A stretch of DNA of 54,985 bases, the filler included, from Stramenopiles sp. TOSAG23-2 (Eukaryota): assembly GCA_900128395.1 (NCBI GenBank). It is 4 parts of 4 records of this genome, joined end to end, with 100 filler letters (N's around TTAATTAATTAA, not from the genome) between each part and the next. Parts side by side here need not be neighbours in the genome. Positions count along the whole stretch, not along the records: positions 27,597 to 41,259 come from LT649791.1; 3 more parts are not named here. One strand, written 5' to 3'. The position numbers and the translations under genes were made by a program. This document shows, piece after piece, positions 9,030 to 51,900 of this stretch. Numbering within the stretch: position 1 is the stretch's first letter; every line of letters starts with the position of its first letter. The notes beneath the pieces are model-generated. The model had not been told where the DNA came from and did no database searches. It saw only the letters and a list, made by a program, of their open reading frames with translations.

Positions 9030-12000
9030 TCATTCATTTAAAACTTTCACACCTTTACCATATTTCACTTGCCCTTTACCATTGCTAACAATAATATTTT
9101 TATCAATTAACGCACGGAAAGAATTTCCTTCGAGATGAATCCCGTATGATTTATTATCTTTAACTCTTGACTTTGAAAGCACTAAACGACCATTGCTATT
9201 CCCATAAATTCCCGTACCAGCGTTCTCTGCAACGTTTGAGTTATTAATAACTATTTTACTACCATCTAAGATTTTTACTCCATCTGCATTCAACCCTTTG
9301 ACTTCGCTGTCTGTCACAAATGCTTCACTGTTTTTATGAATTTCCAAGCCAGTAGTTTTAATCTTGATAAATGGAGAATTTGTGCCAATTAGACTACAAT
9401 AATACATTCTAATTTTACAATTGTGTTCAAGCTTTAATATAGGAACGGCATCTACAGCATTATTCTTGCCTTTTTTCTTCGTAGTGGTGGTGGTGGTGGT
9501 ACTGCTACTACTACTACTACCATTATTTTCATCCACACCCTTTTCATCTTGACGTGCACGAGAAAATTGAACTCCAAGAAAAACACAACTGCTTTTATTT
9601 GTCAATTTATATGATTCATCATTCTTCAAAATGCAATTTACCAAAGGTGTTTTTAAAGCACCATCAATACTGACGCTTTTATATGAGCCAGGGTTGTCCT
9701 CTTCATTTAATGGGCGTATTCCATGATATATGTCACCTTCTCCATCACCAGCAATGAAGCGAACTTTCTTCGAAATTTCCACTGACCCTTCATTATAAGC
9801 ACCAGGTTCTATCGCGATAGCTTCACCATCAATAGCTTGGGCAAGTGCTTCAGTTATGGTATCAAAAATTCTATCTTTTACGGTAATATCAAATATACTC
9901 TTTTGAGAATGATGTGTTCTTGGCAAACCAATACCAGAATCCCCCATTCCATATTCAAAAAACCAATCATCACCCCATAATTTTGTCGATCTAAAATGGT
10001 TACCATCTCCAGGTGCAGCACGTAATTTATAATTTGGTATGACTCTTAGCCACATCGAGCGGTGTTGAACAACTGTGTACCAGTGTAAACATACCATGGA
10101 GGAGGATAAACGATCTTTAGTACCGCAATATAAAAGAATTAAACGTAATAAAGCTGGAGGAAAACCACCAAAAAGTAGTTGACGAGCATCTACTTGAGCA
10201 TCTCGAATTGCTAAGACCAGCGGTTTTGTCCATGTACATTTTCCTGTGCGCGAATTGAAATAATAATTTCTTTTCAATTTCTCGTCAAAATATAATGTCC
10301 ACTCACCACCACTTACACGCCTGCGCTTCTCTTCATGATCCCGTGATTCGCGCAAATTCAGAAACAATCGCTTGCTTCTACCGTAACCACGTTTACTTGG
10401 CGCTGCGCGAACATAATCGGTGGAAGTTTCTAATTCTTTTTCCTCTTTGATACGTTGAAGCTCAATTTGTTCGACTTCCCATTCTCTATTAGACGCTTCT
10501 AACATAACCTCTTTTCTCCATGCGTCCGCAGCTGCATTATTCCATATTGGTTCCATATCTTGTCTGTAATGAATAGCATATCGATCTATCGGCCGTAAAG
10601 CACTTTCTAGTGCTTGCATAGCATTGGATTCATCATTTCCTTGCCACAGTTTGATTAAATTTTGCTCTAGCATTTCATTTTCCTTCTCTGCGGCTTCTGC
10701 CATGGCAGCTGCTTGCGCTTTCTTGGATATTTTTGGTTTAGCAGCATCTTCCACCGCATCTACTTCCAGTTTTTTCGTTTCATCAAATTCTGCTACATCC
10801 TTCATTCTTTCCTTGGCAGTAGCAGCAATTGCTTTTTGATCATCATCATCTTCTGCGGCTGCCATTGCTTTTACGGCGTCTTCTTCATCTTCGTCTTCTC
10901 GAATTACTGCCCCTGTCCCTTCTAATAAATCCTTCATATCAGACGCTTTTGGCCCACCTGCTGATGATCCAGCGAAAAAATCAGTCGTAAATTTCCCTTG
11001 CTCAATCGATAGCATATTTAAATGTCTTTTTTGGTTAGCTTTCATAATAATGTTCTCCTCAACTGTATGTTCAGTAACGAGTCTATAAATATGGACATCT
11101 CTTGTCTGGCCAATACGATGAGCACGATCTTGAGCCTGGGCATCCATTGCTGGATTCCAGTCAGTATCATAAAATATTACAGTATCTGCACCAACTAAAT
11201 TGATTCCTAAGCCACCACTTCTTGTTGACAAAATAAAGGAAAAGATTTTAGGGTCTCTATTAAATCGTTCAGTCAAAGATTGGCGCTTTTCAACATGGGT
11301 AGCACCATCTAAACGAAAGTATGTATGTCCATGTAAACACATAAAATTCTCTAATACATTTAACATTTTCGTCATTTGTGTAAATATTAAACATCTGTGC
11401 CCCTCTCGCTTTAACCGATGCAAAAGCTTATCAAGTACTTGTAATTTCCCACAATCATATTGCACCAGCCATTTGTCTGGGAAAAGAACACGGCGCATCA
11501 TCATCGACACATGGCATGCTCTTAACAGATGATCATTTTCGGCAAATTTCTTTAAAGCCTTTCGTGTTCTGCGACGATTCACTTTCATCATTGGAAACTC
11601 TCGCGTACGATGCACATCTGGACGAGGAGCAGCTGCTGGAGGTATGTAAAGGATAAACTTTTCAACTGTTGGCATGATGCGAATAGTTCTCTCATAATGG
11701 GTCAAAATTAATTTTCTTAGGTATGAAGTGTAATTGAAGTATTCGCGTGGATTTTTAGCCTTTCGTATTGCATCATCTGCATCTCCCCTAACAAAACATG
11801 CATGGATCAACGATTTGTTATACATTGCATATGTGGATGTCGGACCAAAACATCGCATTCGATTGATTCGCAACAAAAGATTTCGCCTTTTATTTTTTTC
11901 TTTCTCCTTTATAAAGTGTATTGACTTACTTGTTTTTATCAAAGTATTTATTGCATTATTATTGCCATTTCCGTTTGTTTGAGGCAAAAAATTGCGCAAG

Positions 12001-13719
12001 CCTTCCACATCCATTTTTTCAATGTAATTTACTGTTTCTGGCAAATCAGTAGCAAGAGCTTTTACCCGTTGCATTACCCATGGATCATCATTTCCAAAGT
12101 TTCTCTCATTGCAAAAATTAAAATCAAAAATAGAGGTTGTACCCCATATTTCGTTACATGGATACATATATTGGCAAATGTATGGGACACTAATTTTTAA
12201 AGGCTTTAAAGTCATTGGAGACACAATAGGACGGGGTTCAAATAAATCGGGATGATTACAGACTTTTCGCAATGCCATCAACACACCCATTTGTCCCATG
12301 TAACCGCCCTGTGTTAGCTTGGCACGTGTGCTTGACCTTGACATGAAATCTTCATATAAGAATTGTTGCCTGCGTGCCAATGGAACTTTTACAATATGTT
12401 CATATTTTTTTGGCAATTGAGACTCTACATCAATTTTCAATCGGCGTAACAGAAATGGACGTATAACACCATGCAATCGGGAAACTAATTCATTACTTAT
12501 GCCTTTATTTCCTTGAACCATACTTGACATTGGATTGTTAAACCAATATTGAAATTCACTTTGGGATTGAAATACATGTGGCATCAAAAAATGCAGCAAC
12601 GACCACAGTTCCATCAAATGATTTTGTAAAGGTGTACCCGATAGTAACAAACGCCTTTGAGTATTTAATGTTAATAGCGATTGCCAACGTTGAGATTTAA
12701 AATTTTTAATATAATGGGCTTCATCGAGAATCAAGAAATACCACTTCTTTCGTTTAAAAACAGCTGTATCAATAACAGCTAATTGATAAGAAGTGATACA
12801 TACATGAAATGCATTTGGCTTTGTCCACCCTGTGCGCTTCTCTTTTCGCTGTTTGCTTGTGCCGTAATATGCCAATACTTTAAAAGCAGGGCAAAACTTT
12901 TTGAACTCAATTTCCCAATTTAACAAAACACTAGTTGGGACAATAACCAAGTGCGGGCCCCAAATCCCATATTCGGATGCTAAATGGGACAATAACGCAA
13001 TTGTTTGAATAGTTTTTCCTAATCCCATTTCATCTGCTAAAATGCCATTTAATCTACGTACACACATAGATGCTAGCCAATGCAAACCTTCGTGCTGATA
13101 GCTACGAAGTGTATATTCAGGATTCATCAAATATGGCAACCGAACGAGGTTTCTTCTTCCATTGTTTACTTCACTTCTGCTACTTTGGTTCCCACCTGAC
13201 TGATTCGAGGAAGGCATCATCATCATTTGACCATTTGGTTTTGGTTTTCCCCCACGCAATCTTTTCTGACCTGTTGTTGGCATATTAATTGGTTGAAGAA
13301 GCTCATTGGTTAAATTAGTAACGCCAGTAGGATTGTCATCGTCGTCATCGCTGGTTTCTGCGTTATTACTTCCATTACCACCATATCCACCATATCGTTT
13401 CATGAGCTCTTCTATTGGCATTTCAGACTCATCTTGTAAAGCATTTACTTCATCATCAATACGTTTTTTCTCATCTTTATTATTGCTAATTAATGCTTCT
13501 TCCTCCAATAACGTAGAATTATCTTCCTCCTCATATGTATTTCCATCATCTTTATAATCTTCATCATCATCGCTAGTAACATCCATTTTTTTACTGCTGC
13601 TACTGCTATTACTGTTGCTATTACTATTATTATTATTATTATCATTATTATTATTATTACGATCGTCATCGTCGTCATCGCTGGTTTCTGCGTTATTACT
13701 TCCATTACCACCATATCCA
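9030..13719 (-). CDS. SWR1: SWR1/SRCAP/PIE1 chromatin-remodelling ATPase with C-terminal WW, F-box and right-handed beta-helix domains (5' partial)
   Basis: NGILADEMGLGKTIQTI, LDEAH, LRKVCNHPDLFE, split-ATPase insert, YDCGKLQ and DWNPAMDAQAQDRAHRIGQTRDV. The frame stays open upstream of Met 13586 to the gap at 13720 (reads GYGGNGSNNAETSDDDDDR...SSKKMDV), so the N-terminus including the HSA domain is missing. Confidence 0.93.
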
Positions 13720-13819
13720 NNNNNNNNNNNNNNNNNNNNNNNNNNNNNNNNNNNNNNNNNNNNTTAATTAATTAANNNNNNNNNNNNNNNNNNNNNNNNN
13801 NNNNNNNNNNNNNNNNNNN
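13720..13819. other. Artificial contig linker (N44-TTAATTAATTAA-N44)
   Basis: Exactly 100 bp with a six-frame stop 12-mer at its centre. The same structure occurs at 27497 and 41260. Confidence 0.95.
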
Positions 13820-17058: not shown

Positions 17059-17205
17059 TAAGCTGAGACCACTGTGACCAAAACGACAAAAAAAAGAGGT
17101 AGTGTTGTAAAAAATAACATCTATATCTTTCCAGCAAGCTGGGAAGACTCTGTGCCTGCCAGAGTAATTCAATTTTAGTAAGTATAGAAATACACAAGAA
17201 GTGGA

Positions 17206-20109
17206 ATGGCAAACAACAACGATCAACTGAATAATGCATTTATGCAGCTTGCTGATGATACGAAATCATTTTCATACCCACAAAATACTGTAGAAAAAAT
17301 AGATGCAAAAGATATTACACCAACTGAATTTTATAAGTCTTACATTTCAAAAAATCGGCCATGCATTATAAAAAATTTATGTAATCATTGGCCAGCATTA
17401 AAGAAGTGGAATGATGATGACTATATAATCGATGCGTGTGGAGATAAAGAAATTAGTGTGAACGTCACTCCAAATGGATATGCAGATGCATTGTATAATA
17501 TGAAAGGTGTGAGTCGAAAAGGTAAAACAACAAGAAAAGTGTTTGTTAAACCTTTAGAAGAAAAAATGACTATGAAAAGCTTTTTAACTCGTTTAAAAGC
17601 TAAGGATAACAAACCAGACGACCCAGTCTTATATTGTAGCCGACAAAATAATTCTTTAATTGATGAATTTTCCGCGTTATTGAAAGATGTTGAGCACAAT
17701 TTGTTATTTGCAAAAAATAGTTTAGATAATAATAATACAAATGTACAAAATGAAGCAACAAATGCAGAAGCAATAAATTTATGGATTGGTGATGAACAAT
17801 CTATTTCAACAACACACCAAGATCCATATGAGAATTTTTATGCAGTTGTTAGAGGCACAAAAATATTTACGTTGTATCCACCGTCGGATGTAGGATTTTT
17901 GTATGAGAAGGTATATCCAACAGCATCATATGTAAAAGATGCGAACAAGAATTTATGTATACAAATAGACAATGAAACAACATGCCCATGGATAACGATG
18001 GATCTCACACAAACGGATGATGAAATAAATGAGAACTTTCCAAAATTTAAATTGGCTCACCAAGTCGTTGCTACTGTTGAAAAGGGCGAATGTTTATATT
18101 TACCGTCACTATGGTTTCATCATGTACAACAAAGGGGATTGACGATTGCGGTAAATTATTGGTATGACATGATCTTTGATTTCAAGTTTTCTTTTTACAA
18201 CTTTGTGAGAACTAATTCTGGCTTACTATCATATGGTGAGAATTTTGCAAGTGAATTAAAAAGCACGATTATTTTTGATTTTGATTGGACGATGGTAAAC
18301 GAAAATACTGATACGTGGGTATTTAAAGTATTAGCACCAGATTTATACGATGAAATAATGACTATGCGCAAGAGTAACAAGAATGATAAATCAAATAAAA
18401 AATTAACATGGCAAGAACTAATGAATTATGGTTTAAAACAACTGAAAGTTAAGTACAATTGCGGACGTGAAGAGTTACAAAACGCATTAGGTACTATGCC
18501 AATCTTTGTTGAAATATTCAACATGATACGCATAATGCATGAGCAAGGCCATGAAATTATCATATTGAGCGATGCAAATGAATTTTATATTGATTACATA
18601 TTGAAAAAATATAATATACATGATGCAATCACGCAAATAATTACAAACAAATCGGCATGGACATCATCATCAAATGATTTATTGCAAATCATGGCATATC
18701 ATTCAGATGGGGAACATGCATGTAATTTATGTCCAAAAAATTTATGCAAAGGAAAGGTTGTTCAACAATTACGACAAGAAAATTTTAGAATGTATCGAAA
18801 ATGTTTTTATGTTGGTGATGGCGGCGGCGATTTTTGTCCATTTACAACGCTAAATCCAACTGATTACATGTATGTTAGGGAAGACTATTCTTGTCATCGT
18901 GAAATTGTGAGATGGAATACGACAAATGAATCATGGCCACAACCTAATGTTAAAACTTGGCAAAATGGAAAAGATGTGTATGACTATTTTCAAAACGATC
19001 TTGAAATTATAACTTCAATCGATCAATTTAGTGAAGCAATGTTACCAATTGAAACGGCAATAAACGAAGAAATTCAAGGTGAGAATGTTCAAATTGAATT
19101 ATGGTATCGTACATGGGGCAACAAAGCAAATGGCATACCAGTTTTATTTGTTCATGGTGGCCCAGGAAATTGTGTTGCTGATTATCAAAATATTAATTCG
19201 AAATTCTTTGATAAAAACAAATTTTATGTTATTGAGGTGGACCAAAGAGGGACTGGGAAAAGCAAGCCATCGGTACGTGATGATTATAATAATATGAAGT
19301 ATTATTTAGACATATCGATTAAACAAATGAGCAATGATTTTGAATTGATTAGGAAGCATTTAAAAATTGATCGATGGTTGGTATTTGGTGGAAGCTGGGG
19401 CTCAACACTTGGTCTGGATTATGCTGAACGATATCCATCGAAATGCTTGGGGCTGATTGTACGCGGCATATATTTAAACACAAAGGACGAGTTTGATGCA
19501 ATTTACTGCCGCAAATCATTTGAAAACAATGAAAGACGGTTGAAAGAGTTTGATATATTTTTTGAATTAGCGAAGGGGAAAGTGAAAGATCTTGATCCTA
19601 ATGATTCAGAACAATTTATTCAAATCTATGAAAAAATGATAATCAATGGGAATAAGGATGCTGCATGGAGATTTTATGTTTTTGAAAACAATCTAATGGA
19701 GGAAAATCCAGAGGAATTACTAGATCCATTTAATATATCTGAAAAACTTTTCCCGGAAGCATTATCTGTGTCATTTTTCGAGTCGCGATTGTTTTTGAAA
19801 GGTACATTTGAAAATCCAGAGCAATTAAATTTATTAACACGTGTGAAGGAATTGAAAAATGGATACAATGGCATTCCTGTAGATACATGGGTGGTTCAAG
19901 GCGTTGGTGATGAAGTGTGCCCTGAAATTTTTGCACAGCAATTAGTGAAAGAGTTGGAAAAACGTGAAATACCTTTTGTTGATCATTTTGTTGATGCAGG
20001 ACATAAAGCAAGTAGCGATGGTATTGGGATAGCGTTGATTGAATGTGTTGAAGATTTTTTGAGGAAATACACTAAAATAGAAACGACGGAGCAAACACAT
20101 ATACTATAA
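17206..20109 (+). CDS. Triple fusion: JMJD7-like JmjC oxygenase + PHOSPHO1/2-type HAD phosphatase + proline iminopeptidase (S33)
   Basis: JmjC: NLWIG, THQDPYENFY, YLPSLWFHHV, IAVNYWYDM. HAD: IFDFDWT, ILSDAN, CNLCPKNLCKG, YVGDGGGDFCP. PIP: FVHGGPG, DQRGTGKS, VFGGSWGSTL, GVGDEVC, DAGH. One uninterrupted 967-aa frame. Confidence 0.9.
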   Translation: MANNNDQLNNAFMQLADDTKSFSYPQNTVEKIDAKDITPTEFYKSYISKNRPCIIKNLCNHWPALKKWNDDDYIIDACGDKEISVNVTPNGYADALYNMKGVSRKGKTTRKVFVKPLEEKMTMKSFLTRLKAKDNKPDDPVLYCSRQNNSLIDEFSALLKDVEHNLLFAKNSLDNNNTNVQNEATNAEAINLWIGDEQSISTTHQDPYENFYAVVRGTKIFTLYPPSDVGFLYEKVYPTASYVKDANKNLCIQIDNETTCPWITMDLTQTDDEINENFPKFKLAHQVVATVEKGECLYLPSLWFHHVQQRGLTIAVNYWYDMIFDFKFSFYNFVRTNSGLLSYGENFASELKSTIIFDFDWTMVNENTDTWVFKVLAPDLYDEIMTMRKSNKNDKSNKKLTWQELMNYGLKQLKVKYNCGREELQNALGTMPIFVEIFNMIRIMHEQGHEIIILSDANEFYIDYILKKYNIHDAITQIITNKSAWTSSSNDLLQIMAYHSDGEHACNLCPKNLCKGKVVQQLRQENFRMYRKCFYVGDGGGDFCPFTTLNPTDYMYVREDYSCHREIVRWNTTNESWPQPNVKTWQNGKDVYDYFQNDLEIITSIDQFSEAMLPIETAINEEIQGENVQIELWYRTWGNKANGIPVLFVHGGPGNCVADYQNINSKFFDKNKFYVIEVDQRGTGKSKPSVRDDYNNMKYYLDISIKQMSNDFELIRKHLKIDRWLVFGGSWGSTLGLDYAERYPSKCLGLIVRGIYLNTKDEFDAIYCRKSFENNERRLKEFDIFFELAKGKVKDLDPNDSEQFIQIYEKMIINGNKDAAWRFYVFENNLMEENPEELLDPFNISEKLFPEALSVSFFESRLFLKGTFENPEQLNLLTRVKELKNGYNGIPVDTWVVQGVGDEVCPEIFAQQLVKELEKREIPFVDHFVDAGHKASSDGIGIALIECVEDFLRKYTKIETTEQTHIL

Positions 20110-27496: not shown

Positions 27497-27596
27497 NNNN
27501 NNNNNNNNNNNNNNNNNNNNNNNNNNNNNNNNNNNNNNNNTTAATTAATTAANNNNNNNNNNNNNNNNNNNNNNNNNNNNNNNNNNNNNNNNNNNN
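27497..27596. other. Artificial contig linker
   Basis: 100-bp N block with central TTAATTAATTAA. Confidence 0.95.
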
Positions 27597-28239: not shown

Positions 28240-30914
28240 TTATATCTCTTTTACCATATACGTTCCAACTAATTTATAGCCTAACTTCTCACGGTAATAA
28301 TTTCTTACTCCTACACCACTAATATCAGCAATTTTATTATATCCATTCCTTTTAGCAATAATTTCAGCTCTTTTCATCAATTTGCGACCAAATCCAACAT
28401 GTTGTGAGCTATTTTCACCAACACCTCCACCAATTGCTAAGGCACGATATCAGCAATTTTATTATATCCATTCCTTTTAGCAATAATTTCAGCTCTTTTC
28501 ATCAATTTGCGACCAAATCCAACATGTTGTGAGCTATTTTCACCAACACCTCCACCAATTGCTAAGGCACGTCCATATACTTGCAGCCAGCGAACTATAG
28601 CAGCACCTTTGATTTCCTCGGGCAATTCTTCGCGTTCTTTTTCTCTGTTTGGACCATTATTAAACCGTAATTTCAAAAAACCATAGACGTATTTCCTATC
28701 TTTTGTTTCAAAAGATAAAAACCATTCTTCCCCGCGATTTGCATAGTATTTGTGCTCATGATACGTAGCCTCTGATATGTCAGTATAATTGGCATTGATT
28801 TCACGCGTTCTTAAACACATTGATTTTACTTTCATGCGATCATGTACAATTTGCTGTGCATTTGTTACATTTACCCCGGCAACAACATAATTTGCTTTGC
28901 CTTTCATTGGCGAGGCGGGTACATCTCTTATGATTCTCTCCACACGTTGGTAAGGTTTTACATATGTCATGAAATGTTCAATTACTCCATATAAACTTTC
29001 AGGGCCTTGGGATTCAAAATATGGAACAAATTTCTTTTCGTTATACCATTTTTTCAATTCACTAAATTCTAAGACCATTGTTGGGTATAATTTCCATCTA
29101 TCAAAATCAAAAAAGTAATACGCAACATGGCCATAATTTTGATCTATATATTTCACAACATTATACATTATAACGGCAAGTAAGTTAATAAAGATCGTGA
29201 TTAATAATAAATGAAAATGATTTTCTTCTAGGAACATATTATTGTAATTATTATTCAGTTTGTAATGATAAAAACAATACATAGCTATTGATATGGGAAG
29301 TGGTATTAAAACATTGTTTAACCAACGATAATCACCAACACGTACAATTTCTACACCATTTAAGACATCATCAATCATTTTTTTATCTTTTTCTGGGGAA
29401 CTTCCTGGTAAATCTGGCATTATATGTGCCAAAACTTTAAATCCAAATTCTTTGCATATCATTGCACGGTCGATTAATTCCGCTCTAGTGCAATCACGTT
29501 TAGTCAAGCGATGTACCGCATCATCAGTTGTTTGAACACCCATTTCAATTGCAGTGATTCCCAGATGCCTTGCCCATTTTAAATTTTTATAGGATATCAT
29601 TTTTGGATGATCCTCCACACAAATTTCAACGGCACGGCATATTGCGGATTCATTTATACGCTGTTCTTCCGCTAAGCTTAATTTTGCCCTCCCTAATGGC
29701 TTACCTACAGTGTTCAACGCGTAAAAAATATCTCGAATGAAACTTTCCTGACCTGGAGAAGTAAATACACTCCACGTACCCCCAACGCAACGCACAAACA
29801 CTTTTCCACATTCATGCCCCATTCCCATCAATGTTGTGATTCGATCATACACTTGTGACGTTGTACTGTAATCGTTTTGTACTGCGCGCCGAACACCTGG
29901 CTCGTGGGTCAAGTATGACTTTGGATTGATTTGATTACCCTCATCATCAACTTCATTTGGGCAATATACACATCCAAATGTACATGATTTAATGCCATAA
30001 TTTCCTTTGATTAACCCATTTACTGTTTCATCAATTGATAAGCCTTTTAAACCATTGACGTTTCCTTCATCAAGAGATACAATATCAAATATATTATTTT
30101 TTCGTCTTCTCTTTTTTTTCTTTCCTGCTTGTTCGCCATCATCATTAGAAGATATATTAATATCTTTACCAAATGTTATAAAACTTGGTTGTAGCGATAG
30201 TATGTCATATTGCCCATCAAAGGATAAATTTGCTGTTGTTGATGAATTATTATTATTATTATTATTATTTTTGTCTTTTTTTTTTTTTACATTGTTTTTA
30301 CCACAATAATCTAGATAGGAAAGAAGTGTATACACGCTTTTCCTTTCTACAACTTCTAACTGAAAAATAGTTTCGTCTACTTTGGTAAATTTGACGGACC
30401 ACATAGGCGCATTATGACCAGGCGGTAAAAATATACTTAAATTGACACCACCAAATGTACTTTTGCTTAGCTTTTTAATAAATAATTGTTCAATTTCAAG
30501 ATCAGCTTCAATAATTTTTTCTCGAACCAAATCACGATATACATGTATTACTTCACTTTTTCTAGTATTGCTATAGCCTCTTTTGTATATTGCACTAGTA
30601 GCACGGCTATAATCTACTAAATTCAAGCGTTGTGACGGTGTTTGTGCATGCCTTTTCACTTTCATTTCCTTCAAATAGTCAATAACTTCTATAACAAATG
30701 GTCGTAATTTTGGATTGCCTTTTTTTGGTTGAAATCCTTCCCACCGATTTGGATCATATTTCACTACATCTTCGATATCATCTAATGCCATTTGGATTGT
30801 CGTGTTACACCAATAAATCGTTATAATAAAATTTGGATTGCCTTTTTTTGGTTGAAATCCTTCCCACCGATTTGGATCATATTTCACTACATCTTCGATA
30901 TCATCTAATGCCAT
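28240..30914 (-). CDS. ELP3: Elp3-like radical SAM / KAT enzyme with internal hydrophobic insert; both ends duplicated in the assembly
   Basis: [71 protein letters not shown] and QHVGFG motifs. The canonical C-terminus [27 protein letters not shown] ends at 28240, past a 125-bp duplication that truncates the ORF-track version. Removing the 123-bp 5' duplication gives ATG 30791. Confidence 0.88.
28322..28571. repeat. Perfect 125-bp tandem duplication (probable assembly artefact)
   Basis: 28322-28446 = 28447-28571. It shifts the Elp3 C-terminus out of frame. Confidence 0.9.
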
Positions 30915-30954
30915 TTGGATTGTCGTGTTACACCAATAAATCGTTATAATAAAA
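30709..30954. repeat. Perfect 123-bp tandem duplication spanning the Elp3 start
   Basis: 30709-30831 = 30832-30954. It produces the repeated [27 protein letters not shown]. Confidence 0.9.
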
Positions 30955-33284: not shown

Positions 33285-34076
33285 ATGAATAATGGTAATA
33301 ATCCAGTAGCGCCGTCTACAACAAATTTAGTAGAACCACCGTCAACCATAAAAACAAGTAATAATATGGAACAGAACCGTGATGATAGTAACGAGGATGC
33401 GTTATCCACACCGTCTACAACAAATTTAGTAGAACCACCGTCAACCATAAAAACAAGTAATAATATGGAACAGAACCGTGATGATAGTAACGAGGATGCG
33501 TTATCCACATTGGTAGATATTATGAAAGATTTGGATACCCACTACAAAGCTGATGATGATATTGAAGTGTTAAAAGAAATTGGAAATGTCAGTGGAAAAA
33601 TAGAAGCAGTTATTAAGGAAAAGGAAATAGGACCACGGGAAATGATAAAACAATTAACGGACGAAGTACATAATGCAACCAACCGGGCTTTGCGACCCGA
33701 ACCATCTCAACGCTTTCTCGAAAGACGTGCGTCACTGGAAAAAGATATCGAAGATGTAGCATTGCGTATACAAAAACATGCACAAGAGGAACGAGCGACT
33801 TTAACGTCTATCGAAGCACTTGAAGCGAAATTAACAGAAGTGAAGCGTCGTCAAGCAAAACTTCAAAATCAAGGTGCTGTAGATGCACCACGTGTGAAAT
33901 ATGCACTTAGTTTGTATGGAAATATTTCCAATATCGTCTGGGATTATACTTCTGATAACGTGAAAGGTATTATAACATCACCATATGGCGGCCCTGTAAC
34001 AAATTTTAATATTGATCCAAGTTCTTGTACATCATTTGAAATTACAAATAGGTTATGGGGATTAAGCAATTGTTAA
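33285..34076 (+). CDS. SPC24: Kinetochore Ndc80-complex subunit Spc24
   Basis: Long coiled coil, then an RWD-type C-terminus LSLYGNISNIVWDY..NVKG..FNID...SFEITNRLW. A 99-bp in-frame duplication lies near the start. Confidence 0.8.
   Translation: MNNGNNPVAPSTTNLVEPPSTIKTSNNMEQNRDDSNEDALSTPSTTNLVEPPSTIKTSNNMEQNRDDSNEDALSTLVDIMKDLDTHYKADDDIEVLKEIGNVSGKIEAVIKEKEIGPREMIKQLTDEVHNATNRALRPEPSQRFLERRASLEKDIEDVALRIQKHAQEERATLTSIEALEAKLTEVKRRQAKLQNQGAVDAPRVKYALSLYGNISNIVWDYTSDNVKGIITSPYGGPVTNFNIDPSSCTSFEITNRLWGLSNC
33312..33509. repeat. Perfect 99-bp tandem duplication
   Basis: 33312-33410 = 33411-33509. Confidence 0.9.
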
Positions 34077-34159
34077 TTTTATACGAAAATATATACATCA
34101 TTTGAAATTACAAATAGGTTATGGGGATTAAGCAATTGTTAATTTTATACGAAAATATA
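34028..34159. repeat. Perfect 66-bp tandem duplication spanning the Spc24 stop
   Basis: 34028-34093 = 34094-34159. Confidence 0.88.
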
Positions 34160-34724
34160 TATTATATATTTCCTACGACGAAAGAAAAAGTGTGTGTGTG
34201 TGTGTTATGCCTTAAAAGATTAGTTTTGTTACAGATTCTCCTCGTATTATATATATATATAATATTATACATGTGTACACAAAATCCTACAAACGCATCT
34301 CGCTCGAGAAAGAGAAGTATAATACATTTGCACTCACATATATTTTTTTGTTTGAAATTATTTCAATATAATAATACCAGTAAAAATAGGATAATTTTTA
34401 GTGCTATGACACTAATAAACATTTGTATTCTAATAAATATAATTACATCCTGATCATCGTTAAAATCCTTAAATGAAAGCCTTAAGGCCTCTGCCGCATT
34501 TTTGGTTGTTGTTGTTGTTCAAAATAGAACAATATACCCACTCTATTCTCTATTCTAACTATTGCAGCTATTATCATACATATAATACAAACTAATTCTA
34601 CTATAATATAATGTATATATTGCTCTGTGAGAACAATGGAAACTTATACTGCTAGCTATAACCATATGTTATTATCAACATTTGTATATATATATATGAC
34701 ATAGTAGATACATGTTGTATTAGG

Positions 34725-36732: not shown

Positions 36733-36958
36733 CTCAAATTTTTCCATCAAATGCACTTTCCAAATCAAGCAATAAAGCAATTCTTTCGAAACGATTACCT
36801 TTACTACTTTCAGTTCGCAATAAAACTTTATTTTGATTACAAATGCTCAAATTTTTCCATCAAATGCACTTTCCAAATCAAGCAATAAAGCAATTCTTTC
36901 GAAACGATTACCTTTACTACTTTCAGTTCGCAATAAAACTTTATTTTGATTACAAATG
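36733..36958. repeat. Perfect 113-bp tandem duplication spanning a stop codon
   Basis: 36733-36845 = 36846-36958. Confidence 0.9.
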
Positions 36959-38367
36959 CGCCTTATGTCATCAGTCGAGACATATACAGCACGGATGTTA
37001 CCAGGCTGTTGAACATCCTCTAGTTTGTATTTAACACCATTATTTACTTCAGACACTACTCTATATACAGATACAATATTTTTCTTACCAGCCAATGTGA
37101 TTTCTTTTGGTGCCATTAATAAGCTGTGCTCATCACCCGCATCATAAGTACCCTTTAATAAATTTTCCTCCAGTGGATTATTTTGTTGTATTGGCGTTGG
37201 TAAAAACAAAGGGCTACCATTGTTGTTGTCATTATTATCATTATTATAATCGTCATTATCATTATTACTTAAACCTAACATACCGAGTGCGGTATCTAGC
37301 TTTTTTTCGACTGGAGTTTTCGTTTCCTCCGTCATTGCTCTCATTGGTGTTATTGGTGGTGCATACCCACCACCGACTCTACGCTGTTTCGTATTCGGTG
37401 TTGATACTCTTGATACAAATTCTCCAGCTGGAACACCTGAAGAACCAGCTTGGTTGATGCCTCTATGATACATTTCCTTTAGCATAACTTCCCCCCGCGT
37501 TTGCACTTTTGTTTTTTGCCTACGTTCTTTAACAACAGCAGGTAAAAGCCTAGGCGTACGGTTTCCTAAGGTCCATTCATAATCCGATATACGTTTTTTC
37601 TTTTTTTTCTTTTTTTTAGGCATAACCTTTCTCATTGCTTCGCGTAAACGCACATGCCTTCGCCAATGCTCCCGTTGATTTTTGTTACTATAGTACGGTT
37701 CTGCCTTTTGTAAAAAATGTAGTAGCTCCTGGTTATGTTTGTTAACAACGTCTAGCTCTACTTGACGGGCTACTCGCAAATGTTTTGTATGGTCTAATGC
37801 GTGTTTTAATTGTTTTTTTCTCCATGTTGGATCTAGAGTTTCAGAAATTTCAGTCTTTTCAAATTGTAAATTGGATATATTTTTTAACATATGTAAATTT
37901 TCACGTTGTAACTTTCTTTCATGCAATAGTCGCTCTCTTGCTCTAGCTTCCGTTGTATCAAATAATATTGCTAATTTATCGGCTAAAACTTCATGTTCTT
38001 CAACGTCTTCAACAACGTATGACTTTGCGTGTCTTATTAGTTTACAATGTACAGCACGCATTTCCTTTAACCACGAAAACGTTACTTTACTAACACCCAT
38101 ACCTTCTTGATCATTATAATCAGCAAACTGATGCTCACCAGGAATATTTTTATATCGCTCGAACCACCTTCTTTGTGCTTGATCCCTCCCACGTTGCCTA
38201 GCTCTTTTGACTCGTTCTTGTTGCGTCATGGGGCGCCTCTGAGATTGACGGCTACTAAGACCACTCCTAGATGTTTGCGAAGTTTTGAGTTTAGAACGGG
38301 CTGAGGAATTCGGCGAGTTATTCATCGGTGCTGTTTGTGCACGTATTGGTGGAGGTGAATCAGTCAT
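36847..38367 (-). CDS. Basic coiled-coil protein, CFAP97/KIAA1430 (Hemingway)-like
   Basis: ERKLQRENLHMLKNISNL and RQVELDVVNKHNQELLHFLQKAEPYY....EHW resemble the paired 'ENxxLLxRL..P.Y' motifs of this ciliary family. Recognised by eye only. Confidence 0.5.
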   Translation of the reverse strand: MTDSPPPIRAQTAPMNNSPNSSARSKLKTSQTSRSGLSSRQSQRRPMTQQERVKRARQRGRDQAQRRWFERYKNIPGEHQFADYNDQEGMGVSKVTFSWLKEMRAVHCKLIRHAKSYVVEDVEEHEVLADKLAILFDTTEARARERLLHERKLQRENLHMLKNISNLQFEKTEISETLDPTWRKKQLKHALDHTKHLRVARQVELDVVNKHNQELLHFLQKAEPYYSNKNQREHWRRHVRLREAMRKVMPKKKKKKKKRISDYEWTLGNRTPRLLPAVVKERRQKTKVQTRGEVMLKEMYHRGINQAGSSGVPAGEFVSRVSTPNTKQRRVGGGYAPPITPMRAMTEETKTPVEKKLDTALGMLGLSNNDNDDYNNDNNDNNNGSPLFLPTPIQQNNPLEENLLKGTYDAGDEHSLLMAPKEITLAGKKNIVSVYRVVSEVNNGVKYKLEDVQQPGNIRAVYVSTDDIRRICNQNKVLLRTESSKGNRFERIALLLDLESAFDGKI

Positions 38368-38377
38368 ACTTCTTGTT

Positions 38378-40060
38378 TTATATTCCTAAGATAATACCAA
38401 GTGATGTATTATGTACATAAATATCTTTGTATTTCTTGCGATTTTTTTTCTTCTTCCCTTTTAATTTTGTACTTATAAAACCATATCCACTTTTTTTCCA
38501 TACGCTTACTACACCAATCTCATATTTAGCAGTATCGCCATCATCATCGCTAACATTTTCATTATCAGCATTATCCATTTCATACGTATCGGAAACAATT
38601 TCTTGAGCAAGATTTTGCTTCTTTTGACTTTGTCGTTGTTGCTGCTGTTTAAAATGCTTTTTATGAGGAGATATGATTTTTTCTGGTATTAAATTGATAT
38701 ATTCCATTTTTTCACCATGTATGCGTCCTACATTTTTAATTTTAATATTATTTTCACGGCTATTTGCATTTATATTTTTACTACGAGAACTCCTTGAAAT
38801 TTGCATATGATTTTCTTTTTGTTGATGCTGTTCATCTTTATTCTTCTTCATCGTCTTAGTATTGTTATTATTTTTCAGATTTCTTGGACTTTTCATATGA
38901 TTTTGTTTTTGTTGAGGATGTTCATCTTTATTCTTCTTCATCGTCTTAGTAGTATTGTTAATATTTTTCATATTTGGATCATTACTGATCAAATTATTTA
39001 TTGGCATTTTCATCTTCACTTTGTTGATAATGTCTTCCCAAAATATTGAGTCTGTAGCAAATGAGGCTAATGTAGATGCTCCGCCTTCCTTTTCTCGGTG
39101 TATTATAATTGATTTAAATCCATAATCTTTAATCCTTTTTAAATCATTTGTAAAATCACAATCATTGGTAATAATTCCAATGCTAGTTTTAGTGACATCG
39201 GGAAAATCATATAATACATTGGATATATCATCAGAAATTAATTTATCTGCACGTTCACTTTTCTTTGAATTACCTATATCAACAACACGAACGCAACTAC
39301 GAATTAAATCGCGAATTGCATTTTTATTTACAGCACTACTATGTGAGCGTGGATTATGGTAACAACTTGTACGTATCATGGAATCATCATCAATAAATCC
39401 TTTTTCTTTAATCATTTCCTTTATTGTTACAAATAATTGAGAGGCATTTATTTTTTTCGGGATATTAATGTTTTCTATATCCCAAAATAAGAAAAAATAA
39501 TTTTGTTTCTTTCTTGGATTTGCTTCTTGTTCAAATATTTGTAACTTTGATTCGATTTGTTTATCAACTTGTTTTTTTCTTTTCTGTTTAACACGCTTTA
39601 TCATCATGTCATTAAATAAACTAAATTCAAGCAAGGGTTGAAATTCTTGAATTACCAATAGGACTGCAGTATTGTCGATGTCACTGTTATCATTATGTTG
39701 AAGTGGTGGTGATAATTTTATTAGTTTTGTATTGTTATTATTATTACTATTATTATTAGTACTATTATTACTTTCATTTGCAACTCTACTTTCAAATATA
39801 CGATAAAAACGGGATCTAGCAATTCCTAATGCTTCTAATCTAGTTGAAATAATATCTTCCGCAAATATTTGTATACGTTGAAAGGAATTGTGTTGGGAAA
39901 TCGTAAATGTCGTACCATCTTTAAACGCCTTGTTATCACTTAAACTATTATCATTCCAAGAGGTTTCCTCAATAGTTAAAGCATAATCCAATGCTTCTTT
40001 CCATGTATCGCCAGCAAGATATGAATGTAAAACTTCTACTGCGTATTTATCAGATATCAT
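38378..40060 (-). CDS. NYN-domain (PIN-like) ribonuclease with BART-like N-terminus and partial cold-shock domain
   Basis: NYN: FWDIEN, KSERADKLI, IITNDCDF. N-terminus resembles ARL2-binding BART (HNSFQ..AEDIISTRLEALGI...LLEFSLFNDMM). C-terminus GVVSVWKKSGYGFI...DIYVHNT matches CSD RNP1/RNP2. Confidence 0.75.
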   Translation of the reverse strand: MISDKYAVEVLHSYLAGDTWKEALDYALTIEETSWNDNSLSDNKAFKDGTTFTISQHNSFQRIQIFAEDIISTRLEALGIARSRFYRIFESRVANESNNSTNNNSNNNNNTKLIKLSPPLQHNDNSDIDNTAVLLVIQEFQPLLEFSLFNDMMIKRVKQKRKKQVDKQIESKLQIFEQEANPRKKQNYFFLFWDIENINIPKKINASQLFVTIKEMIKEKGFIDDDSMIRTSCYHNPRSHSSAVNKNAIRDLIRSCVRVVDIGNSKKSERADKLISDDISNVLYDFPDVTKTSIGIITNDCDFTNDLKRIKDYGFKSIIIHREKEGGASTLASFATDSIFWEDIINKVKMKMPINNLISNDPNMKNINNTTKTMKKNKDEHPQQKQNHMKSPRNLKNNNNTKTMKKNKDEQHQQKENHMQISRSSRSKNINANSRENNIKIKNVGRIHGEKMEYINLIPEKIISPHKKHFKQQQQRQSQKKQNLAQEIVSDTYEMDNADNENVSDDDGDTAKYEIGVVSVWKKSGYGFISTKLKGKKKKNRKKYKDIYVHNTSLGIILGI

Positions 40061-40201
40061 GTTTGATAATTTTTGTTACTATTCCTATACTATATCCAAT
40101 GCTTCTTTCCATGTATCGCCAGCAAGATATGAATGTAAAACTTCTACTGCGTATTTATCAGATATCATGTTTGATAATTTTTGTTACTATTCCTATACTA
40201 T
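39986..40201. repeat. Perfect 108-bp tandem duplication spanning the NYN gene start
   Basis: 39986-40093 = 40094-40201. Confidence 0.9.
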
Positions 40202-40832
40202 ATCGTGTAATCCGAGTTGTGATAGTTGATTGAAAAGAATTTTTGTTATTTCCCGATACAATTATTATTATTCTCTTTTTACTATCAACTCCCAACTTCC
40301 AAGATGAAATGTAAATGCACAAATAATTTCTCATTAAACCGTCTATCAGTATATTTGCATGTGCAGTTTTACCTTTCAATCCCATTCAAGGTGCTACTAT
40401 AACTACTCCTGGGTCTGTATACAGTTCAGTATACTAGATATATACATAGGATCGTCGTCTCATAGTAAGTTCCTTAAATTGTTTTTACTCCGCAAATATA
40501 GGGGATGGGGAATTTTAACACTACGTCTAAGTACGATAATGGGGAACTCCCGGAAAAGATCGAAATCATCCGTATAATATCATGATATGCACATATCGAA
40601 ATAAAGTTAATTAATAATTATTAATCTAATTTTTTACTAATGGTATCGTAAGGATCGTAGGTATATACACACATATTATATACACAAATAATATTACTTA
40701 TATTTTCTTCTTCTGTTTTTTCTTCAGTCATCATTTTTTATTAAGACTATTTGTGGATAGAGCGGATCCTCTTCTCTATATTTGTGCATGCCTGGCATGC
40801 ATTTAGATACTCAGTGTTTTAAAATCATATAA

Positions 40833-41116
40833 TTTTCTGTTTTAAAAAATATCATATGCTGTTTGTATTGGTATTATCTTGGGATCTTACAGGATAAAGA
40901 AAAAAATCATGAGAAGATTTATAATCTTTTTAACAAGAAAATTATTCAATCGCTCTTTTGACGTGAATTCCTCGTTTTCTGTTTTAAAAAATATCATATG
41001 CTGTTTGTATTGGTATTATCTTGGGATCTTACAGGATAAAGAAAAAAATCATGAGAAGATTTATAATCTTTTTAACAAGAAAATTATTCAATCGCTCTTT
41101 TGACGTGAATTCCTCG
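40833..41116. repeat. Perfect 142-bp tandem duplication
   Basis: 40833-40974 = 40975-41116. Confidence 0.9.
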
Positions 41117-41259: not shown

Positions 41260-41359
41260 NNNNNNNNNNNNNNNNNNNNNNNNNNNNNNNNNNNNNNNNN
41301 NNNTTAATTAATTAANNNNNNNNNNNNNNNNNNNNNNNNNNNNNNNNNNNNNNNNNNNN
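41260..41359. other. Artificial contig linker
   Basis: 100-bp N block with central TTAATTAATTAA. Confidence 0.95.
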
Positions 41360-48993: not shown

Positions 48994-51900
48994 TTACTTT
49001 GTATCATCAGATACGGTAAAATTCTCAGATCGCCATTGATCATAATAATATACATCGCCTTCATTACTAAAATTAGTATGTAAAAAATTTTCAATATGTC
49101 TCATTGTTTCATCGACACGCAATGCACTTGGTGCCGCCAATAAGTCATGTGCAGATGGCTCCTCGTCGCTTGTACCAATTTTATAATATGAAAATAAATG
49201 TGGGTCTTCTTTCCATACTAAATGTTGTGACAGTGATTCAATTTCATCATTTAGTAATACTTCGTCAGCGGGGGTTGACATTACCAATGTTGGCTTTTTT
49301 AATACTAATTTATCAGCAACCAATTCATTCTGTACTTGTTTCACTGCATTCATCCATCCAGCTGTTACGTGCAAATCTTTCGTATTTTTCAACTCATCTG
49401 TAAAACCATACGTTTTATACAAATTTAATGAATATTCACTTTTTTCACCACCAGTGGAATTCATAATAGTCGATGGATCCAATGCACCAGCTTTCATACC
49501 ATCATCTAATTTATCCACTAAAAATTTATTATACCATGGCAAGTTCCAACTCCAAAAAGGCGAATTGAAAATATAACCATCAATTGCACCTCTCCATGAT
49601 CCATTTGAACTACTACCATCTGCGCCGTACATAGCAGCAACTAAACCACCTGTTGAATGTGCATAACATACAATGTTTTCATAATATTTACCACATCCAA
49701 TATTATTTGTAAGAACAGTTGATTTACCCCTGCCATAAGAAGCAACTGAAAGTGGGGTTGGACGTTTTAAAAAAGAAACTGTTGCATCTATTTCTTCTAA
49801 ATATTCACTAAAATCGTATGAATCATGCCCCAGTAATTCATCTGATATACATGGCGTTACACCGTCTATATCCATTTTAGAACGCCCACAACGCCTTAGA
49901 TCTAAAACAAACAAATCAAACCCAGCATTTAATACCCGATTTAATATATGTACATGAAAAAATGAATCATTTCTACCTGGAATCCACAATAATGCTTTGT
50001 CATTTCCAGGTAATTGTTTCATTGTCAACACAGCTCGTTCATTTTTTAAGCGCTTATTACTATGCAATGGTATCGATAATGATGTTAACCTTGCATTTTC
50101 AATGCTTTGCTGCGTTACACGTTGTGTACCTTCATAAAAGTCCATCGTTTCCTTTATTCGTTTTTCTTTGATTTGCGATATGTATTTTTCTGGATTTTGC
50201 CACCATCCCTCCAATTCAGGCGGTGAATGTTTATCAGCAAATGCACGTAAGTCACTTTGCAACTTACTTCGATCTGCCCGTAAATTATCCACAATGTTCT
50301 TGCTTAGCAATAGGCGCAAAGATCCTTTCATAGTCGTAAATGCAGTAACAAATGGACTTTGGTGTACAAATGTATAGCCAGAAATGGCAAATACCGGCAA
50401 GGTTGCTAAACCACTCATCACAGAGCTTGTATAGAGACCTACGCTTGTTGCAACAATTGGGTAGTATAATAAGATCCCAGCAAGTCCAGCTACTATTCGC
50501 ATAGTTGCCTCGACTGAACGATCGCCATACTCATCTACTCCCATTTTCGTACCAACAATTTGTGCTAATCCTAAGATTGGAGAGTGTAAAATGCCACCTA
50601 ACATCCCTATTGGCTGTTTCAAGAATGTTGTTAATATTTGTGTACGTGCTTTTGTACGCAATATAGTTAGACGCTCATTCAATGGGTCAGAACCTTTTGC
50701 ATACATTGCTACATATTTGTCAGTAACATCAATTTCATTTAATTTTCTGCCATATTCTTCGATTCGTTTATATAAACTTTGAAATTCTGGATCATCTAAA
50801 CGCCTGACAGCAACATTTGCAAACGAACGAGTCAGGTCAGCATATTGGCCTAATGTCAATTGTGCACCATATGGTTTATAAATATGTCGTGCTAAATGCA
50901 TAATATTTATAAAATCCCAATCTTCAGGTGTTGGTTGTATATTTGCTAAACCAAATAATGCCTTCCTCGCTGCATCACGTTGTAACTCTATATTTGGCAT
51001 CTCTTTCACTAATTGTGATGTCCGTGCCAATATCGTATCCGCCTTTGCTTTTCGTACTCGTTTTCTTGCTTCTGCAACTGTTTCATAATGTGCCACACTG
51101 GTAAATGTATATTCGCCAACTTTTATTTGACATTGTTCCTTTCTACGCTCCAGACGTATCATTTGTTCATATTCCTTTAAATTTAATGTATTTTCATCTT
51201 CTCCATCACCAGTAGAAAATTGATTTATCATTTTCTTTGCTTGTTCCGTTGTGACATTAGTATCCAATTTTTCATTTAATAGCTTTGCAAGCTCTTCAGG
51301 TGTTAACATACCATCTTTATCCAAATCATACTCATAAAATGTATTTCTATCAATGCCTTCATCTTTCTTATTACCGATACTTGATATACCTTGTTGTTCA
51401 TACCATTTTTTCTCTTTTCTTAAAACATCATATACTGGTTCTCCCAAACTACGGTGCTTACAAAATTGTGCTAATTCATTTCTCCAATCAGGAACACGAA
51501 CAGTTACTTCATTTAAATGTCTTTCGATTCTATTTGTCATCATTATCTCAGCGTTTTTTTGCGTGTTGCGATCATCGCTACTGTACATGTCCAATAGATT
51601 ATCTGTAACTTCGACTGGGCGTCCAATATCAATTAATACTTTTGCTCGAAACTGTGCACCGGATGGGACAGAATATGTAATACCAATAGGAAATATTGGT
51701 ATTCTCATTTGACCCTTTGATCCTTTGCTAACTTGCAATGCCATGCGTGCAGTTCCTACTTTCAACGCCTTGATTTGTGGAGTCGAATGGCATGTACCTT
51801 CGGGAAATATACATACATTAACACCATCAATTAGCCTTGATGTTACCGTGTCAAACATTTCTTGATTCATTAATTGACGTTCTTCTTTTGGCATTTGTTT

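What the first reader, a model, noticed from the sequence alone, without database searches (positions are those of the whole stretch)
29110..29350. Elp3-like enzyme with a two-helix membrane-like hairpin inside the radical SAM domain
Seen: between [14 protein letters not shown] and DRWKLYPT, normally only about 15 residues apart, there is an insert of roughly 80 aa with two hydrophobic stretches ([15 protein letters not shown] and [21 protein letters not shown]). A second long insert with poly-Asn and KKKKRRRK precedes the Fe-S motif. Known: Elp3 carboxymethylates tRNA U34 and is soluble, except apicomplexan Elp3, which is tail-anchored to mitochondria. Inference: an independently evolved membrane-tethered Elp3 paralogue acting at an organelle surface.
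Basis: partly seen in the sequence, partly recalled or inferred. Interest (0 to 1): 0.7.

Follow-up and report, generated by a model that had tools for sequence, protein, structure and literature searches.

The report
Membrane-hairpin Elp3 with rewired active site
Uncultured marine protists carry a second copy of the tRNA-modifying enzyme Elp3 that is probably tied to a membrane by two helices inserted inside its catalytic domain, and it has also replaced active-site residues that other Elp3s almost never change, so it may act on a different RNA or attach a different chemical group.

Summary
A 79-aa insert lies between HIMPDLP and DRWKLYPT and is modelled as a beta-hairpin stalk tipped by two hydrophobic helices. 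All 19 clade members that span it keep a hydrophobic loop despite about 20-30% identity, including a Telonema transcript protein. Named members are Telonema, MAST-4, Picozoa (fragments) and one Megaviridae contig. The host genome also has an ordinary tail-anchored Elp3, so this is a paralogue. None of 24 loop-anchored proteins has a tail anchor. Giant-virus Elp3s gained a similar hairpin at the same loop, and a single clade of all loop-anchored proteins is rejected. The Fe-S/SAM and acetate-positioning residues are intact. Best reading: a membrane-tethered Elp3 paralogue with changed specificity (0.55); same reaction at another membrane (0.25). One correction: tail-anchored Elp3 is common in protists and giant viruses, not only apicomplexans. 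Earlier scan notes covered viral tail anchors on other DNA, not this internal hairpin. Membrane insertion and activity are untested.

The parts
28240..30791 (-). Divergent Elp3 paralogue CDS (true product about 808 aa; the window copy is interrupted by a 125-bp duplication near the 3' end)
   Evidence: (P0002, 808 aa, 100% identity); Pfam Radical_SAM and Radical_SAM_C; TIGR01211 311.5 bits, below the 350 cut-off
29115..29354 (-). 79-aa insert (about residues 480-559): beta-strand / helix / loop / helix / beta-strand
   Evidence: AlphaFold2 secondary structure E480-484, H489-511, H522-553, E555-559; alignment A1
29259..29327 (-). Hydrophobic helix 1 (489-511); uncharged run 490-510; weak hydropathy in this member
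29133..29228 (-). Hydrophobic helix 2 (522-553); uncharged run 524-546; KD19 2.48
29988..30419 (-). Clade-specific beta-rich inserted domain (about 125-268) before the Cys motif; holds the variable poly-Asn and KKKKRRRK loops; fold unassigned
   Evidence: best structural matches Z 4.2 or lower
29961..29984 (-). CxxxCxxC [4Fe-4S] motif (C270, C274, C277)
29772..29804 (-). [12 protein letters not shown]330 (human K164) and GGT kept; human E166->F, and M. infernus tunnel residue I154->R334
   Evidence: PMC13315578
29601..29630 (-). [12 protein letters not shown] segment: E393 (M. infernus E207) kept; human G217->E389 and ETRPD->EDHPK fixed in 20 of 20
29550..29552 (-). A414 in place of human R242 (anticodon-loop and U33 contact)
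   Evidence: PMC11096365
29079..29102 (-). DRWKLYPT: K567 and Y569 (M. infernus K302/Y304, human K316/Y318) kept
   Evidence: PMC13315578
28572..28592 (-). RWLQVYG in place of RELHVYG (human E474->W735, H476->Q737)
   Evidence: W and Q in 18 of 18 non-gap clade rows; E in 233 and H in 235 of 235 others
28512..28529 (-). QHVGFG acetyl-CoA phosphate-binding motif (human G496/G498), kept
28240..28321 (-). True C-terminus after the duplication, with the conserved YY pair (28294-28299); ends 11 aa after the YYREKLGY motif, with no hydrophobic tail
28322..28571 (.). Exact 2 x 125-bp tandem duplication: assembly artefact that shifts the frame
   Evidence: single copy in L014 and L015
30709..30954 (.). 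Exact 2 x 123-bp tandem duplication over the start codon: assembly artefact

Best explanation
A stand-alone radical-SAM/GNAT enzyme of the protist and giant-virus Elp3 branch, tethered to a membrane and specialised after duplication. (1) Anchor, inferred, about 0.85. The loop before the DxxKxYP strand forms a two-stranded stalk tipped by two hydrophobic helices. Both ends return to the catalytic domain, so the helices enter the bilayer as a hairpin, fully spanning or re-entrant, and the enzyme stays on one, probably cytosolic, face. This replaces the C-terminal tail anchor of its sister paralogue. (2) Radical half, inferred from motifs, about 0.85. CxxxCxxC binds [4Fe-4S] and cleaves SAM. E393, K567 and Y569, which position acetate in M. 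infernus Elp3, are intact, so a small carboxylate radical can still be added to a base. (3) Substrate, inferred, about 0.8 for RNA. Five of seven anticodon-loop arginines remain (human R151, R361, R364, R367, R402). (4) Changed specificity, inferred, about 0.6. The acetyl pocket (E474->W), the U33-facing residues (H476->Q, R242->A) and the tunnel wall (I154->R, G217->E, ETRPD->EDHPK) are fixed to new residues across the clade, while CoA-handle residues (K164, K280, GxG, YY) remain. The enzyme most likely still carboxyalkylates an RNA uridine at a membrane surface, but for a different RNA set, acyl donor or trigger than the ordinary Elp3 in the same cell.
For: Loop hydrophobic in 19 of 19 spanning clade members, against at most 1.27 elsewhere in the same proteins. 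AlphaFold2 gives strand-helix-helix-strand with pLDDT 70-93 by block over 481-560, and the core overlays D. mccartyi Elp3 at Z 36.9, rmsd 2.8 A, 389 residues. The Telonema subtile Trinity protein P0146 carries the insert. Anchors exclude each other: 0 of 24 loop-anchored proteins with a C-terminus have a hydrophobic tail, against 86 of 226 others. Among giant-virus loci, 24 have a bare beta-hairpin plus tail and 3 have a helical hairpin and no tail. The host holds a tail-anchored Elp3 with canonical residues and a bare beta-hairpin at the same loop. 68 of 85 near-invariant columns are kept, 10 are fixed to another residue and 7 vary. The roles of the changed residues are taken from PMC11096365, PMC6367351 and PMC13315578.
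Against: No transmembrane predictor, localisation or assay could be run. Helix 1 is weak in this member (KD19 about 1.2). Some changes may be harmless or compensated: M. infernus H463A still hydrolyses acetyl-CoA, and M. infernus has Gln at the E474 position. Gains of R334, E389, E618 and D781 could replace the lost Arg and Glu residues. Anchor exclusion is not significant once kinship is counted (4 independent pairs, median p 0.25). One protein, P0380, scored for both loop and tail, though its hydrophobic stretch sits elsewhere and looks like a read-through intron. The clade sits on a long branch (1.1), so relaxed constraint may explain some changes.
Confidence: 0.55

Rival explanations
1. 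Same reaction, different address: an ordinary cm5U34 synthase whose charged active-site residues moved to neighbouring strands, with the hairpin sending it to another membrane or tRNA pool than the tail-anchored paralogue.
For: All residues shown essential at the radical site in M. infernus (E207, K302, Y304) are kept, as are K150, K266 and Y517. Losses pair with gains in charge (R242->A with I168->R; E166->F with G217->E; E474->W with E618 and D781). Acetate can bypass acetyl-CoA in vitro (PMC13315578).
Against: Trp at the E474/Q461 site, where Ala already cripples acetyl-CoA binding or hydrolysis. Arg at a tunnel site where Trp abolishes activity. Giant-virus Elp3s moved the anchor to the same loop without changing these residues, so the rewiring is not needed for relocation.
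Confidence: 0.25
2. The helices are not a membrane anchor but a hydrophobic protein-binding or dimerisation arm of a soluble enzyme.
For: Helix 1 hydropathy is low here. The shortest member, P0019, has uncharged runs of only 16 and 21 aa. No topology predictor was available.
Against: The insert keeps hydrophobicity but not sequence (20-29% identity, pN 0.50-0.59 against 0.17-0.23 in the core), which fits a lipid-facing helix better than an interface. It never occurs with a tail anchor in 24 proteins.
Confidence: 0.09
3. A repurposed enzyme that no longer acts on RNA, for example on a lipid or membrane-bound small molecule, or an enzyme with one domain inactive.
For: Long stem branch, ten fixed changes, an extra beta domain and a membrane anchor close to the barrel.
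Against: Five anticodon-loop arginines are kept (human R151, R361, R364, R367, R402), and both cofactor sites are intact in nearly all rows that cover them.
Confidence: 0.09
4. The insert is an intron or an assembly artefact.
For: The window has many assembly duplications. Seven in-frame GT..AG pairs could remove 174-258 nt.
Against: The insert is identical in two independent assemblies. It is an open hydrophobic frame in 19 divergent genes, including a transcript-derived protein and a giant-virus gene.
Confidence: 0.02

Closest known systems
Toxoplasma gondii Elp3 (tail-anchored, outer mitochondrial membrane; PMC5749711, passages)
   Same: Stand-alone Elp3 without the other Elongator subunits, membrane-tethered, same protist branch (Theileria P0106 is among the hits).
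   Different: Here the anchor is an internal helical hairpin, not a C-terminal tail. The active-site motifs differ from those of the branch, and there is an extra beta domain. The host's other Elp3 (G000:C5530), not this one, is the TgElp3-like protein.
Methanocaldococcus infernus and Dehalococcoides mccartyi Elp3 (PDB 6IA8/6IAD, 5L7J)
   Same: Fold (Z 36.9, rmsd 2.8 A over 389 residues); CxxxCxxC; K150, E207, K266, K302, Y304 and Y517 equivalents.
   Different: Soluble, with a 22-aa loop. M. infernus Q461->W, H463->Q, I154->R, E152->F, ETRPD->EDHPK.
Human and yeast Elongator Elp3 (PDB 8PTX, 8ASW)
   Same: K164, K280, K316, Y318, Y478, G496/G498, Y529/Y530, R151, R361, R364, R367 and R402 equivalents.
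   Different: E474->W, H476->Q, R242->A, R384->Q, Y363->E. No Elp1, Elp4 or Elp5 found in the host (the genome may be incomplete).
Giant-virus Elp3s with a loop hairpin (L094, L096, L098; P0120, P0160, P0180, P0200, P0205)
   Same: Hydrophobic hairpin at the tip of the same beta-hairpin, and no tail anchor.
   Different: Canonical ETRPD and RELHVYG. A different beta insert, after rather than before the Cys motif (no profile match). Separate place in the tree.
CDKAL1 and T. gondii RlmN (tail-anchored RNA-modifying radical SAM enzymes; PMC7545696 and PMC5749711, passages)
   Same: Radical SAM RNA-modifying enzymes held at a membrane surface.
   Different: Unrelated chemistry; terminal anchors.

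Membership tests
Elp3 (TIGR01211) | Radical SAM domain fused to a GNAT domain with the Elp3 fold | tested here: met
   Pfam; phmmer to 9 Elp3 chains; Foldseek and VIA-align
Elp3 (TIGR01211) | Score above the curated cut-off of 350 bits | tested here: not met
   311.5 for P0002 and 314.8 for P0146; 354.2 for the viral member P0019; 415.2 for the host's other Elp3
Elp3 (TIGR01211) | Three Cys for [4Fe-4S]; GGT; acetate-positioning E207/K302/Y304 | tested here: met
Elp3 (TIGR01211) | Acetyl-CoA handle residues K164, K280, GxG, YY | tested here: met
Elp3 (TIGR01211) | R[EQ]LHV[YF]G acetyl-pocket motif (human E474/H476) | tested here: not met
   RWLQV[YF]G in 18 of 18 non-gap clade rows
Elp3 (TIGR01211) | ETRPD motif and U33-contacting R242 | tested here: not met
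   EDHPK and Ala in 20 of 20
Elp3 (TIGR01211) | Forms cm5U34 on tRNA | not testable with these tools
   needs an assay
Tail-anchored Elp3 (TgElp3 type) | C-terminal transmembrane helix | tested here: not met
   0 of 18 clade members with a C-terminus
Tail-anchored Elp3 (TgElp3 type) | Outer mitochondrial membrane location | not testable with these tools
   no localisation data
Elongator-complex Elp3 | Elp1-6 partners in the genome | tested here: inconclusive
   Elp1: only a sub-cut-off WD40 hit. Elp4 and Elp5: none. Elp2 and Elp6 not searched. Genome of 9146 contigs, completeness unknown.
Integral membrane protein | Predicted or shown transmembrane segments | tested here: inconclusive
   Hydropathy and modelled helices fit; no topology predictor available

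The most novel reading that the evidence does not exclude
This clade is a new radical-SAM/GNAT enzyme that writes an undescribed RNA modification (another acyl-derived group, another base position or a non-tRNA target) at an organelle surface in abundant uncultured marine protists, and a giant virus has captured it. The repeated move of the anchor from the tail to the same internal loop would then mark membrane placement as a general need of Elongator-independent Elp3s.
Probability: 0.33. Interest if true: 0.85.

Novelty: new variant of a known kind. Interest (0 to 1): 0.66.

Why it matters
Elp3's active site is among the most conserved in RNA modification, and how acetyl-CoA hydrolysis, U33 sensing and the acetate tunnel are coupled is still argued (PMC11096365 against PMC13315578). 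A natural clade that keeps the radical site but rebuilds exactly the acetyl pocket, the U33 contacts and the tunnel wall is a ready test of those models. It is also a candidate for a new RNA mark in picoplankton predators. Separately, why T. gondii Elp3 must sit on a membrane is unexplained (PMC5749711, PMC12674569). Several independent swaps between a tail anchor and an internal hairpin suggest that tethering itself is selected, and they show where an anchor can be grafted onto the barrel.

Tried and rejected
RNA support for this organism's insert: 21 of 22 listed runs hold part of the gene (11 on record as RNA; best share 0.57 among those). No reads were laid on it, so this is not counted and exon status in this organism stays open.

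Viral copies of the EDHPK clade: none in IMG/VR (31 pattern matches, 0 confirmed; 0 of 73 readable loci). A P0160 scan also found none. The only viral member is QFG74021.1 / L020, whose neighbours (UvrD helicase, collagen repeats, alginate lyase) show no link; no tRNA genes in 7 loci.

Identity of the beta insert: Pfam, PDB sequence and ESM Atlas searches gave nothing usable. Fold searches gave only weak six-stranded-barrel matches (Foldseek E 0.04 or worse; VIA Z 4.2 or lower). No profile match to the giant-virus beta insert.

Elongator and thiolation partners in the host: Elp4, Elp5, Ctu2 and Urm1 not found (two of these searches rang in no control genome). A Kti12-like hit lies on a 641-base, 53% GC contig, unlike the host's roughly 31-35%, and is probably contamination.

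Gene neighbourhood: rejected as informative. Neighbours differ between clade loci, and L014 has a JmjC gene where the window has an N-linker and GART.

pN/pS is near saturation and is used only as a contrast. Complex prediction was not run, as no partner is claimed.

Literature searches that showed no description of this clade or of an internal Elp3 hairpin in their listings: 0 papers; 0 papers. The library lacks most subscription journals; Stilger and Sullivan 2013 was seen only as a citation, and its supplements may list such sequences.

Full report
Observation. The window is intron-poor eukaryotic DNA of about 33% GC. The gene runs on the minus strand from ATG 30791. The loop from HxMPDLP to DxxKxYP is 101 aa against the usual 22, a 79-aa insert. 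Exact 123- and 125-bp tandem duplications at the gene's ends occur once only in two independent assemblies, L014 and L015. They are artefacts, and the real protein is P0002 (808 aa).

The insert is conserved as a hydrophobic hairpin. One search returned 19 proteins (P0002-P0020) far above the rest, and all carry the insert. In 19 of 19 members scored (P0146 in place of its shorter isoform P0018) the best Kyte-Doolittle 19-mer of the loop is 1.82-2.94, against 0.83-1.27 for the rest of the same proteins. The scale and the 1.6 threshold are recalled, and no topology predictor was available. Loop length varies from 67 to 101 aa, and insert identity to two relatives is 20-29% against 68-77% in the core. 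AlphaFold2 on the clade alignment (mean pLDDT 77, pTM 0.78) gives strand 480-484, helix 489-511, helix 522-553 and strand 555-559, and the core matches D. mccartyi Elp3 at Z 36.9. In this member helix 1 is weak (KD19 about 1.2). Seven chance GT..AG pairs could remove the insert in frame, but a Telonema subtile Trinity protein and a giant-virus gene carry it.

Distribution. Named members are Telonema subtile, a MAST-4 stramenopile (P0371), Picozoa (three fragments with EDHPK, not spanning the insert) and Megaviridae QFG74021.1. A profile search of 1.84 billion representatives found only a handful at clade level, so the clade is small and, as far as named, marine. The host is probably a marine stramenopile (inference from P0371). 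Its genome holds one other Elp3 (G000:C5530), with canonical motifs, a bare beta-hairpin at the same loop and a hydrophobic C-terminal tail. No Elongator-type Elp3, Elp1, Elp4 or Elp5 was found, but completeness is unknown.

Anchor swapping. I aligned 255 proteins: the hits plus P0146 and the host paralogue, leaving out P0018 and those under 430 or over 1000 aa. Loop anchors occur in 19 of 20 clade rows (the twentieth is truncated) and 6 of 235 others. None of the 24 with a C-terminus has a hydrophobic tail, against 86 of 226 without a loop anchor; 97 tail-less rows form one largely prokaryotic group. Of 80 giant-virus loci, 7 had no single frame. Three have a helical hairpin and no tail, a fourth (L095) is borderline at 1.51, 24 have a bare beta-hairpin plus a tail, 17 have a hairpin with the tail not parsed, and the rest have short loops. 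Alignment A3 shows the helices sitting at the tip of that beta-hairpin. In a 46-row IQ-TREE tree (rows chosen by hand, columns under 80% filled dropped) the EDHPK clade has support 100 on a long stem and is apart from the viral hairpin groups. Holding all 19 loop-anchored rows together is rejected (p-AU 3e-78), and parsimony needs 5 changes. Caveats: I had seen the FastTree result first; the test does not examine the clade against each viral group alone; the tree is unrooted for gain versus loss; and only 4 independent pairs exist (never the same direction, median p 0.25). Among 117 new relatives of the host's other Elp3, 100 have a tail and no loop anchor. One, P0380, scored for both, through a low-complexity stretch at a different position that looks like a read-through intron (inference).

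The active site is rewired. Using HMMER alignments to human and M. infernus Elp3, I mapped the tested residues. Kept: the three cysteines, human Y127, R151, K164, GGT, E221 (M. infernus E207), E244, K280, H284, K316, Y318, R361, R364, R367, R402, R473, Y478, G496/G498 and Y529/Y530. Of 85 columns at least 93% invariant in the 235 other Elp3s, 68 are kept, 7 vary and 10 are fixed to another residue: G217->E, T222->D, R223->H, D225->K, R242->A, L->H427, R384->Q, R->K707, E474->W and H476->Q. E166->F, I168->R and Y363 (Asn in most of the branch)->E are also clade-wide. In human Elp3, E474 lies by the acetyl group, H476 faces U33, and R242 binds the anticodon loop and U33. E474A and H476A cut acetyl-CoA hydrolysis 3-4 fold, and R242K lowers it (PMC11096365; passages, parts 3-4 of 9 and section 7 read). 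In M. infernus Q461A impairs acetyl-CoA binding, whereas H463A stays active (PMC6367351, passages). I154W and M156W block the acetate tunnel, and E207, K302 and Y304 are needed at the radical site (PMC13315578, parts 1-4 of 9 and passages of a supplementary review file). The changes therefore cluster at the acetyl pocket, the U33 trigger and the tunnel, and spare the radical site. The loop-anchored viral proteins keep all canonical residues, so rewiring and anchor are separate events.

How it most likely works. Shown: sequence, conservation pattern, paralogy and modelled fold. Inferred: the hairpin inserts into a membrane with both ends on the catalytic side; the Fe-S cluster cleaves SAM; an RNA stem-loop binds through the five retained arginines; a CoA thioester binds in the GNAT domain; and a carboxylate radical is added to a uridine. 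The refitted pocket implies a different RNA set, donor or trigger from the sister Elp3 (0.55). The main rival is the same cm5U34 reaction with charged residues moved between strands (0.25). Which membrane is unknown. The outer mitochondrial membrane is a lead by analogy with TgElp3 (PMC5749711, passages) and with Fe-S delivery there in Toxoplasma (PMC12674569, passages); the ER is a lead by analogy with CDKAL1 (PMC7545696, passages). The host's CDKAL1/MtaB-like, TYW1-like and RlmN-like proteins also have hydrophobic terminal helices. The clade's beta insert before the Cys motif folds as a small beta domain with only weak barrel matches; an RNA-binding or partner-binding role is a guess.

Known versus new. 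It works like a stand-alone, membrane-tethered Elp3. It fails three membership features of canonical Elp3 (HMM cut-off, RELHVYG, ETRPD/R242) and the tail feature of TgElp3. A second Elp3 clade in oomycetes is in print (PMC5112689, passages); the oomycete hits belong with the host's other Elp3. My searches showed no account of an internal hairpin or of this clade; PMC13255074 (passages) had nothing on it. Earlier scan notes hold nothing like this sequence and nothing on Elp3 in this genome; two notes describe giant-virus tail anchors, which bears out.

Verdict. Real, conserved and apparently undescribed: a new variant of a known kind, interest 0.66. The hairpin alone is a modest novelty, since membrane-tethered Elp3 has precedent. 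The repeated anchor swap and the clade-wide rewiring of tested catalytic residues make it worth an assay.

Noticed in passing
G000:C5530 (L003:281-2362, +): Second host Elp3, 672 aa, canonical motifs, bare beta-hairpin at the same loop and a C-terminal hydrophobic tail (KD19 2.32); TgElp3-like.
   Followed up: yes
L094, L095, L096, L098; P0120, P0160, P0180, P0200, P0203, P0205: Giant-virus and unassigned Elp3s with canonical active sites that carry a helical hairpin at the same loop and lack the tail; their close relatives have a bare hairpin plus tail.
   Followed up: yes
L094:4382-4675, L100:3318-3584 and relatives: Many giant-virus Elp3s have a roughly 90-aa beta-rich insert just after the CxxxCxxC motif, with no profile match to this clade's insert; fold not examined.
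   Followed up: partly
L177:829-2781 (+), L179:109-2787 (+), L181:847-2409 (-): Host CDKAL1/MtaB-like, TYW1-like and RlmN-like radical SAM proteins each have a terminal hydrophobic helix (KD19 2.16, 2.53, 2.07). A tail-anchored RlmN was reported for Toxoplasma.
   Followed up: partly
window 28322-28571, 30709-30954, 33312-33509, 34028-34161, 36733-36959, 39986-40204, 40833-41116: Exact two-copy tandem duplications of 66-142 bp; the two tested are assembly artefacts, the others probably too, and they can fake frameshifts.
   Followed up: partly
window 13720-13819, 27497-27596, 41260-41359: N-linkers with a fixed 12-base core join separate contigs. L014 shows a JmjC gene downstream of the Elp3 where the window shows GART, so neighbours across linkers are not real.
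   Followed up: partly
window 17188-20109 (+): 973-aa frame joining cupin/JmjC-like, HAD phosphatase and alpha/beta hydrolase domains; fusion or adjacent genes not checked.
   Followed up: no
window 48994-52224 (-): 1076-aa frame with acyltransferase, EF-hand and hydrolase domains.
   Followed up: no
window 9030-13763 (-): SNF2 helicase frame continuing into WW, F-box and beta-helix domains.
   Followed up: no
L178:892-2322 (+): B12-binding radical SAM-like protein in this eukaryotic genome (weak matches to cobalamin-dependent methyltransferase families).
   Followed up: no
L012 (G000:C4105): Kti12-like fragment on a 641-base contig of 53% GC; probably contamination.
   Followed up: partly
L006 (G000:C6962) and L010 (G000:C7816): Short contigs with slightly different copies of this gene's 5' and 3' ends; probably alleles or a co-assembled relative.
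   Followed up: partly
L019:4862-7734 (+): Clade member split into two frames by a short gap after the third conserved arginine, which looks like an intron; it explains the truncated P0014.
   Followed up: no
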